Assembly (NCBI GenBank): GCA_947053545.1
Contig: CAMRSY010000004.1
Coordinates: 9,006 to 73,005, forward strand
Reading direction: 5' to 3'
Length of the DNA: 64,000 nt
Source of the DNA: an uncultured Clostridia bacterium
GTDB taxonomy: Bacteria; Bacillota; Clostridia; Christensenellales; Borkfalkiaceae
Shown here: one piece after another, positions 40,901-41,082 of the stretch
Numbering within the stretch: position 1 is the stretch's first letter
How the letters are laid out: each line of letters opens with the position of its first letter
The notes under the pieces: model-generated
The model's database searches: none
Told to the model about the DNA's origin: nothing
What the model saw: only the letters and a program-made list of their open reading frames with translations
Program-made: the position numbers and the translations under genes

Positions 40901-40955
40901 AAAACAAAAAAGCCAAAACTTATGCCCCGCGTTGGTCCGAGGGAATAGCTTTGGC
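40901..40955 (-). terminator. Riboswitch expression platform: terminator hairpin GCCAAAGCT...AGTTTTGGC plus TTTTTTGTTTT
   Basis: Read on the minus strand. The 5' arm overlaps the 3' end of the aptamer (GTTGCC). Confidence 0.6.
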
Positions 40956-41035
40956 AACTGACGACCGTAAGTTGTTTTAACAACCTTTAGGTTCTTAAGC
41001 TTTGCGTCCTGACCTTTCGGACAGTTTGCTCTTAA
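40945..41035 (-). promoter_or_regulatory. c-di-GMP-I (GEMM-I) riboswitch aptamer
   Basis: Minus strand: GAGCAAACUGUCC-GAAA-GGUCAGGACGCAAAGCUUAAGAACCUAAAGG... Compare the V. cholerae Vc2 core GGCAAACCAUUC-GAAA-GAGUGGGACGCAAAGCC...CCUAAACC. Confidence 0.8.
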
Positions 41036-41053
41036 ACATTTTTTACATTACAT

Positions 41054-41082
41054 ATTTTATTATATAACGAATAAAATGTCAA
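41054..41082 (-). promoter_or_regulatory. Candidate sigmaA promoter driving the riboswitch (TTGACA-17-TAAAAT)
   Basis: Minus strand: -35 at 41082-41077, -10 at 41059-41054. About 12-20 nt upstream of the aptamer. Confidence 0.55.

What the first reader, a model, noticed from the sequence alone, without database searches (positions are those of the whole stretch)
40901..41082. c-di-GMP-I (GEMM-I) riboswitch with a terminator expression platform controlling the fibre operon
**Aptamer match.** The minus-strand leader contains GCAAAC-UGUCC-GAAA-GGUCA-GGACGCAAAGC followed by ...CCUAAAGG... This matches the most conserved GEMM-I elements: the GNRA-capped P2 hairpin, the ACGCAAAGC junction and the CCUAAA receptor.

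**Context.** It sits 12-20 nt downstream of a TTGACA-17-TAAAAT promoter and directly upstream of a 9-bp terminator stem plus U-run.

**Predicted logic.** The terminator's 5' arm (GCCAAAGC) overlaps the aptamer's 3' end (GUUGCC). Ligand binding may therefore disfavour termination (an ON switch), which fits high c-di-GMP inducing matrix or adhesin genes.

**Local circuit.** Two EAL phosphodiesterase genes lie immediately upstream.
Basis: partly seen in the sequence, partly recalled or inferred. Interest (0 to 1): 0.7.

Follow-up and report, generated by a model that had tools for sequence, protein, structure and literature searches.

The report
Cyclic-dinucleotide riboswitch controlling a secreted-fibre operon
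This is a genuine, evolutionarily conserved c-di-GMP class I (GEMM-I) riboswitch that most likely turns on a TasA/SipW-type secreted-protein operon when the second messenger is abundant; it is a new example of a well-known RNA class, with an uncommon A in place of G at one ligand-contact base.

Summary
Rfam RF01051 (c-di-GMP-I) matches window 41040-40950 (- strand) full length at 66.9 bits, against a gathering score of 35 (E 6.5e-11). A TTGACA-17-TAAAAT promoter lies just upstream. A long hairpin with a 9-bp basal stem and a U-run follows directly, and its 5' arm starts inside the aptamer's 3' end.

All 21 orthologous loci from uncultured gut Clostridia carry the same aptamer, the same overlapping terminator, and two upstream EAL genes. 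P2 and P3 show compensatory changes.

The terminator's basal pairs use the cytosine that must pair with the ligand. This is the design of proven ON switches such as pilM, so ligand-induced read-through is the best reading; this step is inferred.

- The base equivalent to Vc2 G20 is A (41030), and it is A in 22 of 22 orthologues. This is the GEMM-Ib/bispecific signature. An Rfam score cannot separate c-di-GMP from 3',3'-cGAMP, although the conserved EAL neighbours favour c-di-GMP.
- The regulated operon has six genes: two TasA-like secreted proteins, two SipW peptidases, and a McrB-like/DUF2357 pair. It ends at a strong terminator. The giant dockerin protein has its own promoter.

Verdict: a new member of a known kind.

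The parts
41054..41082 (-). Sigma-70-type promoter: -35 TTGACA (41082-41077), 17-nt spacer, -10 TAAAAT (41059-41054). The predicted transcription start is near 41047.
   Evidence: One search gives 11 of 12 consensus matches. A TTGAC[AT]-N17/18-TANNNT promoter is found at the equivalent place in 20 of 22 orthologous leaders, and the -10 end lies 22-23 nt before A20 in 13 of them.
40950..41040 (-). GEMM-I (c-di-GMP-I, RF01051) aptamer
   Evidence: 66.9 bits (gathering score 35), E 6.5e-11, full model. Orthologues score 60.8-74.3 bits in 21 of 21 loci.
41030..41030 (-). The ligand-contact base equivalent to Vc2 G20, Cd1 G11 and Gs1761/pilM A14. Here it is A, the 'A20' variant.
   Evidence: It aligns to Rfam consensus position 11 (G), the unpaired base just 5' of the first P2 pair. 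It is invariant A in 22 of 22 orthologues, while the preceding base varies G/U/A. The mapping rests.
41004..41029 (-). P2 hairpin with a GAAA (GNRA) tetraloop at 41018-41015
   Evidence: Rfam alignment. RNAalifold recovers it independently, with compensatory changes at 4 of its 8 pairs.
41003..41003 (-). A47-equivalent: the first A after ACGC, which in Vc2 stacks between the two ligand bases
   Evidence: Sits within the ACGCAAAGC junction, which is conserved in the orthologues (L010 has ACGCAAAAC). The role of A47 is my recollection of the Vc2 structures; the 2'-OH contact is.
40956..41001 (-). P3 hairpin with a CCUAAAG...UACGG tetraloop-receptor-like internal motif
   Evidence: Rfam alignment. 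6 of its 13 predicted pairs show compensatory changes among orthologues.
40954..40954 (-). C92-equivalent (pilM C75, Cd1 C87): the cytosine that forms a Watson-Crick pair with one guanine of the ligand. It is also the second base pair of the terminator stem.
   Evidence: It is the first C of the invariant UGCC. Gs1761 contacts include G74, C75 and C76. In the pilM ON switch the terminator sequesters C75.
40912..40955 (-). Intrinsic terminator hairpin: 9-bp basal stem GCCAAAGCU/AGUUUUGGC plus an interrupted upper stem, dG -20.7 kcal/mol
   Evidence: An equivalent hairpin starts at the same GCC in 22 of 22 orthologues, with divergent upper stems.
40901..40911 (-). U-run of the terminator (UUUUUUGUUUU)
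40066..40857 (-). Gene 1: a 263-aa secreted protein with a TasA-like fold (TTG start; RBS AGAGGGG at 40870-40864)
   Evidence: No Pfam hit. AlphaFold2 model pLDDT 85. The only significant PDB fold match is the TasA fibre 8aur_A (E 8.4e-4, probability 1.0, TM 0.31-0.34). 96 homologues, all unnamed.
38959..39966 (-). Gene 2: a 335-aa protein with a SipW-dependent-type signal peptide. It is a distant paralogue of gene 1 through a shared C-terminal WxEGxDxDC motif.
   Evidence: TIGR04088 at 24 bits, above its cutoff of 19. BLASTP against gene 1 gives E 2e-7 over the last 40 residues.
37879..38772 (-). SipW-like (archaeal-type) signal peptidase I
   Evidence: TIGR02228 at 58.3 bits (cutoff 51.85); the NF046067 SipW model also hits at E 2.8e-20 but only 72.7 bits, below its 190-bit cutoff.
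36306..37844 (-). McrB-like AAA+ protein whose N-terminal hydrophobic stretches look like membrane segments
   Evidence: NF008457 McrB, weak hit. PDB McrB 6hz4, E 1e-5. PADLOC PDC-M26A, E 8.5e-41. It is among the best-conserved genes of the module, at 74-91% identity.
34794..36245 (-). DUF2357 protein, the partner of the McrB-like protein
   Evidence: Pfam PF09823, E 1.1e-8. Conserved in position.
34147..34797 (-). Second SipW-like signal peptidase I. The likely start is the internal Met; the ORF as listed is 34953-34147. This is the last gene of the operon.
   Evidence: TIGR02228 at 57.3 bits. Conserved in position.
34102..34135 (-). Terminator that ends the riboswitch-controlled operon: a 15-bp stem followed by a U-run
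   Evidence: It is followed by a TTGACA-18-TATTAT promoter (34056-34027) for the giant dockerin gene.
41183..42586 (-). Degenerate-GGDEF plus EAL protein, a predicted c-di-GMP phosphodiesterase, immediately upstream. No terminator was detected between it and the riboswitch.
   Evidence: Pfam EAL, 1.5e-54. The EAL-domain signature motifs appear to be present on my reading (ESL in place of EAL). Conserved synteny at 60-92% identity. No terminator found.
42601..44796 (-). EAL protein with a hydrophobic N-terminal segment, a predicted c-di-GMP phosphodiesterase
   Evidence: Pfam EAL, 1.8e-58. EAL motif intact. Conserved synteny.

Best explanation
A GEMM-I class cyclic-dinucleotide riboswitch sits in the 5' leader of a six-gene operon (window 40857-34147, minus strand). 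The operon encodes two TasA-like secreted proteins, two SipW-type signal peptidases, and a McrB-like AAA+ / DUF2357 pair.

**Proposed mechanism (transcriptional ON switch).**
1. Transcription starts at the TTGACA-17-TAAAAT promoter, about 16 nt before the aptamer core.
2. P2 (with a GAAA tetraloop) and P3 (with a tetraloop receptor) fold first.
3. Without ligand, the 3' tail G40955-C40954-C40953-AAAGCU pairs with AGUUUUGGC. This completes a -20.7 kcal/mol hairpin directly next to a U-run, and transcription stops at about 40901-40911.
4. With ligand, C40954 pairs with one guanine of the ligand, A41030 contacts the other base, and the neighbouring bases close a short P1. This withholds the three G-C pairs closest to the U-run, so RNA polymerase reads through into the operon.

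**Ligand.** The physiological ligand is most likely c-di-GMP. The A at the G20 position probably lowers affinity into the nanomolar range and relaxes discrimination against 3',3'-cGAMP.

**Shown versus inferred.** Shown: the aptamer's family identity, conservation and covariation, the promoter, the terminator, their overlap, and the gene content. Inferred: ligand binding, the direction of regulation, the in-vivo ligand, and the fibre function of the operon.
For: **Aptamer identity.** RF01051 full-length match, 66.9 bits against a gathering score of 35. The same hit lies upstream of the gene-1 orthologue in 21 of 21 loci, at 60.8-74.3 bits. RNAalifold on 18 distinct sequences recovers P2 and P3 independently, and 10 of 21 pairs show compensatory changes.

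**Promoter.** 11 of 12 consensus positions, conserved in 20 of 22 leaders.

**Terminator.** Present in 22 of 22 leaders. It always starts at the aptamer's GCC, while the upper stems diverge.

**Mutual exclusivity.**
- At transcript length 136 nt the minimum-free-energy fold keeps P2 and P3 and forms the terminator. Only the junction and P1 nucleotides are contested.
- Blocking GCC drops the hairpin from -20.7 to -11.2 kcal/mol and leaves it detached from the U-run.
- In the experimentally characterized pilM ON switch, the terminator likewise sequesters the ligand-pairing C75 (C75-G102). In the OFF switch Cd1, aptamer and terminator coexist.
- There is no spacer in which a separate antiterminator could sit.
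- A class I ON switch with a terminator is proven for Bc2 of B. thuringiensis.

**Ligand.**
- A20 aptamers still bind c-di-GMP tightly: Vc2 G20A at 53 nM and C. beijerinckii Cbe 1-2 at 30 nM.
- Two EAL-domain genes are conserved immediately upstream in every locus that extends upstream of the aptamer (20 of 21; L002 is cut at the aptamer). That EAL domains are c-di-GMP-specific phosphodiesterases is established knowledge.

**Operon content.**. **Operon end.**
Against: - No experiment has been done; ligand binding and termination control are inferred.
- P1 is very weak. Only about 2-4 pairs can be drawn, and no consistent stable duplex appears across the orthologues. How much the ligand can hold back a -20.7 kcal/mol hairpin is therefore uncertain.
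- All seven functional class I switches of the clostridial species C. difficile are OFF switches, and a review warns against extrapolating direction between species.
- The ligand-contact position 20 is A, the signature of cGAMP-sensing GEMM-Ib, and it is invariant in 22 of 22 orthologues. In a metagenome sample of the same core motif it is G in 112 of 124 matches and A in only 7.
- The TasA-like assignment of gene 1 rests on one weak fold match (TM 0.31-0.34).
Confidence: 0.62

Rival explanations
1. Same aptamer and same ON architecture, but the physiological ligand is 3',3'-cGAMP, or the switch integrates both cGAMP and c-di-GMP. It would then be a GEMM-Ib-type sensor in gut Clostridia.
For: - The G20-equivalent base is A (41030), invariant in 22 of 22 orthologues, although the base before it varies.
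- A at this position defines the cGAMP riboswitches, and A-to-G switches selectivity to c-di-GMP.
- The local motif AA(U/G)A matches the Gs1761 ligand contacts A11, A12, U13, A14.
- A20 is rare in a metagenome sample, 7 of 124.
- RF01051 contains the cGAMP riboswitches, so the Rfam score does not discriminate.
Against: - A20 alone gives bispecificity, not cGAMP selectivity. Vc2 G20A binds c-di-GMP at 53 nM and cGAMP at 120 nM. The natural clostridial A20 aptamer Cbe 1-2 prefers c-di-GMP, 30 nM against 463 nM.
- The conserved neighbours are EAL phosphodiesterases, which act on c-di-GMP.
- No cGAMP synthase (Hypr-GGDEF or DncV-type) was noted among the genes I scanned. Only part of the 64-kb window was scanned, and the rest of the genome is unknown.
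- From my own knowledge, cGAMP riboswitch signalling is so far tied to Geobacter and its relatives.
Confidence: 0.13
2. The riboswitch is an OFF switch, or acts by another route. Ligand binding would favour termination, for example because the apo aptamer misfolds into a structure that competes with the terminator, as in C. difficile class I switches.
For: - All seven functional class I riboswitches in C. difficile are OFF.
- P1 is weak, so the ligand-bound state may not out-compete the terminator.
- At 98-118 nt the minimum-free-energy folds of the apo leader include non-native P3 alternatives.
Against: - No conserved antiterminator element exists. The terminator starts with zero spacer inside the aptamer in 22 of 22 leaders.
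- The terminator itself pairs with the ligand-binding cytosine, which is the ON design of pilM. In the OFF switch Cd1, aptamer and terminator coexist and a separate antiterminator pairs with that cytosine.
- An OFF switch on a secreted matrix-type operon would run against the usual pattern in which high c-di-GMP favours a sessile lifestyle.
Confidence: 0.15
3. Chance resemblance or a decayed, non-functional aptamer.
For: Some annotated GEMM-I copies in C. difficile are non-functional.
Against: - E 6.5e-11 with a full-length match.
- Present in 21 of 21 orthologous loci whose proteins have diverged to 41-73% identity.
- Compensatory base changes in P2 and P3.
- Conserved promoter and terminator.
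Confidence: 0.02

Closest known systems
c-di-GMP-I / GEMM-I riboswitch (Rfam RF01051; type examples Vc2 of Vibrio cholerae and Cd1 of Clostridioides difficile)
   Same: - Full-length covariance-model match.
- P2 with a GNRA tetraloop and P3 with a tetraloop receptor.
- ACGCAAAGC junction with the A47-equivalent, and UGCC with the C92-equivalent.
- Located in a 5' leader, with a weak P1 as in Cd1.
   Different: - Position 20 is A rather than G.
- Vc2 is described as acting at the level of translation, and Cd1 is a transcriptional OFF switch in which aptamer and terminator coexist. Here the terminator overlaps the aptamer, which predicts an ON switch.
Bc2 riboswitch upstream of cap (collagen adhesion protein) in Bacillus thuringiensis
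   Same: A class I aptamer in Bacillota with an intrinsic terminator platform. It is an experimentally shown ON switch: c-di-GMP promotes read-through of a surface or adhesion gene.
   Different: - Different regulated gene: one adhesin, against a TasA/SipW-type operon.
- The Bc2 leader is longer, with 76 nt before the aptamer.
The paper calls 'A11' a ligand-binding base.
GEMM-Ib 3',3'-cGAMP riboswitches of Geobacter (Gs1761/pgcA, pilM, Gmet_0970)
   Same: - A at the position-20 equivalent.
- An AAUA-type 5' junction.
- Transcriptional ON design in which the terminator sequesters the ligand-pairing cytosine.
   Different: - Host is a gut Clostridia lineage with EAL genes next door.
- The P2 base pair following A20 is G-C here, whereas Gs1761 has C15 at that place.
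- The canonical GAAA tetraloop and 11-nt-type receptor are present here.
- cGAMP selectivity was not tested.
Cbe 1-2, a natural A20 GEMM-I aptamer of Clostridium beijerinckii
   Same: A clostridial class I aptamer with A at the G20 position. It binds c-di-GMP through a protonated adenine (30 nM) and binds cGAMP more weakly (463 nM). This is the most likely behaviour of the present aptamer.
tapA-sipW-tasA (Bacillus subtilis) and sipW-tasA-calY (B. cereus) matrix-fibre operons
   Same: A SipW-type signal peptidase is encoded together with secreted proteins that carry SipW-cognate signal peptides and a TasA-like fold.
   Different: - No sequence-level similarity to TasA/camelysin (no Pfam PF12389 hit).
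- Two SipW copies.
- An embedded McrB-like/DUF2357 pair.
- Riboswitch control; to my knowledge the Bacillus operons are controlled by protein repressors such as SinR. None of the 15 papers shown from a search for 'c-di-GMP riboswitch', sipW and TasA (at least two terms required) contained the riboswitch term.

Membership tests
c-di-GMP-I / GEMM-I riboswitch (RF01051) | Covariance-model score at or above the curated gathering score | tested here: met
   66.9 bits against 35, E 6.5e-11, model 1-87 of 87. It is the best family in clan CL00126.
c-di-GMP-I / GEMM-I riboswitch (RF01051) | P2 hairpin capped by a GNRA tetraloop, and P3 hairpin carrying the tetraloop receptor, supported by covariation | tested here: met
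   GAAA loop at 41018-41015 and a CCUAAAG...UACGG motif. RNAalifold on 18 orthologues recovers both helices, and 10 of 21 pairs show compensatory changes.
c-di-GMP-I / GEMM-I riboswitch (RF01051) | Ligand-pairing cytosine (Vc2 C92) and intercalating adenine (Vc2 A47) are present | tested here: met
   C40954 in the invariant UGCC and A41003 in the ACGCAAAGC junction (conserved apart from L010, ACGCAAAAC). Roles taken.
c-di-GMP-I / GEMM-I riboswitch (RF01051) | G at Vc2 position 20, which reads the second guanine and gives selectivity for c-di-GMP over cGAMP | tested here: not met
   A at 41030, in 22 of 22 orthologues. G20A yields bispecific binding. This does not remove the RNA from RF01051, which also holds A20 members, but it removes the basis for assuming strict c-di-GMP specificity.
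c-di-GMP-I / GEMM-I riboswitch (RF01051) | Binds c-di-GMP and changes gene expression in response | not testable with these tools
   Needs in-line probing or ITC, termination assays and reporters.
c-di-GMP-I / GEMM-I riboswitch (RF01051) | Located in a 5' untranslated leader with an expression platform | tested here: met
   Promoter at 41082-41054, terminator at 40955-40901, gene start at 40857.
GEMM-Ib (3',3'-cGAMP riboswitch subclass) | A at the position equivalent to Vc2 G20 / Gs1761 A14 | tested here: met
   A41030, invariant. Mapping.
GEMM-Ib (3',3'-cGAMP riboswitch subclass) | Selective binding of cGAMP over c-di-GMP | not testable with these tools
   A20 alone is insufficient: Vc2 G20A and Cbe 1-2 are bispecific or prefer c-di-GMP.
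GEMM-Ib (3',3'-cGAMP riboswitch subclass) | The host makes 3',3'-cGAMP (Hypr-GGDEF GacA-type or DncV-type synthase) | not tested
   Only 64 kb of the genome is available, and only part of that was scanned. The cyclic-dinucleotide genes found in the window are two EAL proteins, one with a degenerate GGDEF domain.
Transcriptional ON riboswitch (terminator competes directly with the ligand-bound aptamer) | The terminator 5' arm shares nucleotides with the aptamer's ligand-binding or P1 3' strand, with no separate antiterminator | tested here: met
   G40955-C40954-C40953 are both the aptamer 3' end and the first three terminator pairs. The layout is the same in 22 of 22 leaders, and matches pilM.
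Transcriptional ON riboswitch (terminator competes directly with the ligand-bound aptamer) | Ligand increases read-through | not testable with these tools
   Requires single-round transcription or reporter assays.
TasA/SipW-type extracellular fibre operon | A SipW-type (archaeal-like) signal peptidase I is encoded alongside its substrates | tested here: met
   Two genes match TIGR02228 above its cutoff, at 58.3 and 57.3 bits against 51.85. Both also hit the SipW model NF046067, but below its 190-bit cutoff.
TasA/SipW-type extracellular fibre operon | Substrate proteins with a SipW-cognate signal peptide and a TasA/camelysin fold | tested here: inconclusive
   Gene 2 matches TIGR04088 above its cutoff. 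The gene 1 model has TasA fibre 8aur_A as its only significant PDB match, but TM is only 0.31-0.34. No Pfam Peptidase_M73 hit and no PDB sequence hit.
TasA/SipW-type extracellular fibre operon | The proteins polymerize into extracellular fibres | not testable with these tools
   Needs microscopy or biochemistry.

The most novel reading that the evidence does not exclude
The A at the ligand-recognition position is strictly conserved in all 22 orthologous leaders, yet it is seen in only about 6% of a metagenome sample of the same core motif. This could mean the switch is tuned to something other than plain c-di-GMP. It might sense 3',3'-cGAMP, or integrate two cyclic dinucleotides, in a gut Clostridia lineage. 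That would extend GEMM-Ib-type signalling well beyond Geobacter. It would also link the signal to a previously undescribed secretion module, in which TasA-like subunits and SipW peptidases are co-inherited with a McrB-like AAA+ protein and its DUF2357 partner, which may have been recruited from a restriction or defence function into fibre assembly.
Probability: 0.1. Interest if true: 0.7.

Novelty: new member of a known kind. Interest (0 to 1): 0.4.

Why it matters
It adds a well-supported, conserved regulon to the short list of class I cyclic-dinucleotide riboswitches with a predictable direction of control: an uncharacterized TasA/SipW-like secreted-protein operon of uncultured gut Clostridia. 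It gives a concrete handle on how these uncultured gut bacteria may switch on matrix or adhesive structures, namely reporter fusions and termination assays on a roughly 200-nt leader. The invariant A20 makes this leader a natural test case for how the G20A substitution is used in Bacillota, whether for affinity tuning or for altered ligand choice. It also shows that an RF01051 hit alone should not be read as 'c-di-GMP specific'.

Tried and rejected
- **Primary literature.** I tried to read the papers on A20 variants (Kellenberger 2015, Nelson 2015, Smith 2010) by DOI and PMC id; none is held. A search for the Vc2 sequence string found nothing. The position-20 mapping therefore rests on Keller 2018, Landgraf 2022, a review table and the Rfam alignment.
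- **Extended P1.** I searched for a conserved, stable P1 between the 5' leader and the strand 3' of C92 using RNAduplex on all 22 leaders. No consistent register appeared and energies ranged from 0 to -7 kcal/mol. I rejected the idea of a long P1. The promoter position limits the 5' strand to about 16 nt in any case.
- **G41031 as the real G20.** I considered that G41031 is the true G20 with A41030 bulged. Rejected: that position is G, U or A among the orthologues, whereas A41030 is invariant.
- **Giant dockerin protein in the regulated operon.** Rejected. A 15-bp terminator and a near-consensus promoter lie between sipW2 and that gene, and the gene is absent from related loci.
- **Sequence-level searches for genes 1 and 2.** Pfam, NCBIfam and PDB gave nothing beyond the signal-peptide model.
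- **Literature on riboswitch-controlled TasA/SipW operons.** None of the 15 papers shown from a search for 'c-di-GMP riboswitch' with sipW/TasA contained the riboswitch term.
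Full report
**1. The observation**

- TTGACA (41082-41077), a 17-nt spacer, then TAAAAT (41059-41054).
- GCAAAC-UGUCC-GAAA-GGUCA-GGACGCAAAGC (41029-40999).
- CCUAAAGG (40991-40984).
- GUCAGUUGCC (40962-40953).
- A hairpin at 40955-40912 whose basal stem is GCCAAAGCU/AGUUUUGGC, followed by UUUUUUGUUUU (40911-40901).

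The consensus scan scores the promoter 11 of 12. Folding gives the hairpin at -20.7 kcal/mol.

A cmscan of the whole 64-kb window against all 4227 Rfam families returns RF01051 (c-di-GMP-I) at 41040-40950 on the minus strand. The score is 66.9 bits against a gathering score of 35, E 6.5e-11, covering model positions 1-87 of 87. It is the only non-tRNA hit.

**2. Conservation**

The first downstream gene (40857-40066, 263 aa) has 96 homologues. All are unnamed and come from uncultured gut Clostridia, including Candidatus Coproplasma.

A scan of 185,579 species genomes with a profile of this protein gave 21 loci at 41-73% protein identity. Every one of the 21 has an RF01051 hit, at 60.8-74.3 bits, about 80-310 nt upstream of the orthologue.

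RNAalifold on the 18 distinct aptamer sequences used no knowledge of the family, yet it recovers P2 and P3. Ten of the 21 predicted pairs show compensatory double changes.

A TTGAC[AT]-N17/18-TANNNT promoter is present in 20 of 22 leaders. One of the two exceptions is cut off by a contig end. In 13 leaders the -10 element ends 22-23 nt before the aptamer core. All 22 leaders have a hairpin plus U-run that starts at the same GCC of the aptamer's 3' end. The basal stem is conserved, while the upper stems differ in sequence and length, with dG from -12 to -25 kcal/mol.

This is a functional, selected RNA element.

**3. The expression platform and direction of control**

The last three nucleotides before the Rfam model's 3' tail are G40955, C40954 and C40953. 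They are also the first three pairs of the terminator, the ones directly adjacent to the U-run.

C40954 is the first C of the invariant UGCC. It corresponds to Vc2 C92, pilM/Gs1761 C75 and Cd1 C87, the cytosine that forms a Watson-Crick pair with one guanine of the ligand.

Landgraf et al. showed that the two designs differ:
- In the pilM ON switch, the terminator sequesters exactly this cytosine (C75-G102). Aptamer and terminator are mutually exclusive.
- In the OFF switch Cd1, aptamer and terminator coexist. A separate antiterminator pairs with the cytosine.

Here there is no spacer for a separate antiterminator. At a transcript length of 136 nt, the minimum-free-energy structure keeps P2 and P3 and forms the terminator, so only the junction nucleotides are contested. 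Forbidding pairing of GCC lowers the hairpin from -20.7 to -11.2 kcal/mol and leaves it separated from the U-run.

I therefore favour an ON switch: with no ligand transcription terminates at about 40905, and with ligand it reads through. A class I ON switch of this kind has been shown experimentally for Bc2 of B. thuringiensis.

Caveats:
- P1 is very short. The promoter leaves only about 16 nt 5' of the core. RNAduplex finds no consistent stable 5'/3' duplex, much as in Cd1, where no P1 was detected.
- All functional class I switches in C. difficile are OFF, and direction cannot simply be extrapolated between species.

The direction of control is an inference, at about 70-75% confidence.

**4. 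The ligand-contact position 20 is A**

In the Rfam alignment, consensus position 11 is an upper-case G: the unpaired base immediately 5' of the first P2 pair. Here it is A41030.

This position is Vc2 G20. Its Watson-Crick edge reads the Hoogsteen edge of the second ligand guanine, so it is not paired within the RNA. Further support for the mapping:
- Gs1761 A14 is stated to be its equivalent, and the Gs1761 contacts A11, A12, U13, A14, C15 match the local AA(U/G)A-G here.
- In pilM, U15-G38 is the lowest P2 pair, which places A14 immediately 5' of P2.
- In Cd1 the equivalent base is G11.

All 22 orthologous leaders have A at this position, while the preceding base varies G/U/A. That variation also rules out G41031 as the true G20.

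In an arbitrary sample of 124 matches to GCAAAC-N(8-24)-GGACGCAAAGC in metagenome contigs, the preceding base is G in 112, A in 7, T in 4 and C in 1. These matches were not re-verified with Rfam, and the pattern may under-sample Geobacter-type sequences.

The literature on this position:
- G20A makes Vc2 bispecific: c-di-GMP at 53 nM and cGAMP at 120 nM, against picomolar c-di-GMP binding for the wild type.
- The Geobacter A-variants are cGAMP-selective.
- An A-to-G change flips Gmet_0970 to c-di-GMP selectivity.
- The natural clostridial A-variant Cbe 1-2 binds c-di-GMP at 30 nM and cGAMP at 463 nM.

So the aptamer belongs to RF01051, which also holds the cGAMP riboswitches, but an Rfam score cannot decide the ligand.

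I judge c-di-GMP the likely physiological ligand, at about 80%, for two reasons. A20 aptamers still bind it at nanomolar affinity. And the two genes immediately upstream are EAL phosphodiesterases (E 1.5e-54 and 1.8e-58), in which the EAL-domain signature motifs appear to be present on my reading. Both are conserved in synteny in every locus that extends upstream of the aptamer: 20 of 21, with L002 cut at the aptamer.

A plausible role for A20 is to raise the response threshold, so the operon switches on only at high c-di-GMP. This is an inference.

**5. What is regulated**

The operon runs from 40857 to 34147 on the minus strand.
- **Gene 1 (263 aa)** has an N-terminal hydrophobic segment that looks like a signal peptide, and no Pfam match. 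Its AlphaFold2 model has pLDDT 85.4. The only PDB match with E at or below 0.001 is the TasA fibre structure 8aur_A (E 8.4e-4, probability 1.0), but TM is only 0.31-0.34.
- **Gene 2 (335 aa)** matches the SipW-dependent signal-peptide model TIGR04088 above its cutoff. It shares a C-terminal W-x-E-G-x-D-x-D-C motif with gene 1 (E 2e-7).
- **Two genes** (38772-37879 and about 34797-34147) match the archaeal-type signal peptidase I model TIGR02228 above its cutoff; their SipW-model (NF046067) scores stay below cutoff.
- **Between them** lie a 512-aa McrB-like AAA+ protein (PDB McrB, E 1e-5; PADLOC candidate PDC-M26A, E 8.5e-41) and a 483-aa DUF2357 protein. The N-terminal hydrophobic stretches of the AAA+ protein look like membrane segments on my reading.

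This order is conserved in all related loci long enough to show it. The McrB-like protein is among the most conserved members, at 74-91% identity.

The operon ends at a 15-bp-stem terminator (34135-34102), followed by a TTGACA-18-TATTAT promoter (34056-34027). The 3447-aa GLUG/FIVAR/dockerin protein (33856-23513) and its cohesin partner (23516-21072) therefore form a separate transcription unit. The giant dockerin gene has no match in the related loci. Several of those loci instead have an 84-nt tRNA on the opposite strand just beyond sipW2.

'Fibre operon' is thus a reasonable but unproven label for a TasA/SipW-type secreted-protein module. It does not include the giant protein.

**6. Upstream circuit**

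No terminator was detected between the stop of the GGDEF-EAL gene (41183) and the riboswitch promoter. Transcripts of the EAL genes may therefore run into the leader and be subject to the same terminator. This is an inference.

**7. Comparison and novelty**

The element is a member of the GEMM-I class, of the minority A20 type. It has a terminator-overlap platform like pilM and a predicted read-through logic like Bc2. The class, the A20 variation and the ON design are all known.

What is new is the instance and its conserved regulon in an uncultured gut Clostridia clade. None of the 15 papers shown from a literature search for 'c-di-GMP riboswitch' together with sipW/TasA contained the riboswitch term.

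I classify it as a new member of a known kind, of moderate interest. The most novel reading not excluded is cGAMP or dual-ligand sensing in gut Clostridia, controlling a fibre module that has recruited a McrBC-like pair. I put this at about 10%.

Noticed in passing
window 37844-34794 (-): A McrB-like AAA+ protein (512 aa; PADLOC candidate defence family PDC-M26A at E 8.5e-41; PDB McrB at E 1e-5; N-terminal hydrophobic stretches that look like membrane segments) and a DUF2357 protein (483 aa) sit between the two SipW genes. They are conserved at that place in all related loci long enough to show them. The McrB-like protein is among the most conserved genes of the module, at 74-91% identity. A McrBC-like pair inside a secreted-protein operon is unexplained: it could be an assembly or secretion factor, or a defence module that hitch-hikes.
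   Followed up: partly
window 33856-21072 (-): A 3447-aa protein with GLUG repeats, FIVAR and a C-terminal type I dockerin overlaps by 4 nt (so is possibly translationally coupled to) an 814-aa protein with a cohesin domain and four cadherin-like domains. This looks like a cohesin-dockerin surface adhesin pair. It has its own promoter (34056-34027), and the giant dockerin gene has no match in the 21 related loci, so it appears to be a lineage-specific insertion next to the fibre operon.
   Followed up: partly
window 16965-12079 (-): A 1628-aa ORF with no Pfam match at E <= 0.001, downstream of the cohesin gene region. Not examined further.
   Followed up: no
window 6851-8261: A phage-integrase-like ORF (6851-8098, +) lies next to a tRNA gene (8261-8180, -). 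This may mark the edge of an integrated mobile element.
   Followed up: no
window 45021-44950 (-): A 72-nt tRNA lies directly upstream of the EAL gene pair. A tRNA with a near-identical Rfam score lies at a comparable upstream position in several related loci (for example L001, L007 and L008; in L004 and L005 it is on the opposite strand). The block tRNA, EAL, GGDEF-EAL, riboswitch and operon thus appears to be syntenic in part of the clade.
   Followed up: partly
loci L023-L142 (metagenome contigs): Among 124 matches to the GEMM-I core GCAAAC-N(8-24)-GGACGCAAAGC, the base at the G20 position is G in 112, A in 7, T in 4 and C in 1. The T and C variants, and the seven A variants (L024, L052, L062, L063, L099, L118, L141), were not checked with Rfam or for downstream genes.
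   Followed up: no
window 41183-41083 (-): No terminator was detected between the GGDEF-EAL gene and the riboswitch promoter. The riboswitch terminator may therefore also end the phosphodiesterase transcript, coupling read-through from the EAL genes to ligand level.
   Followed up: no
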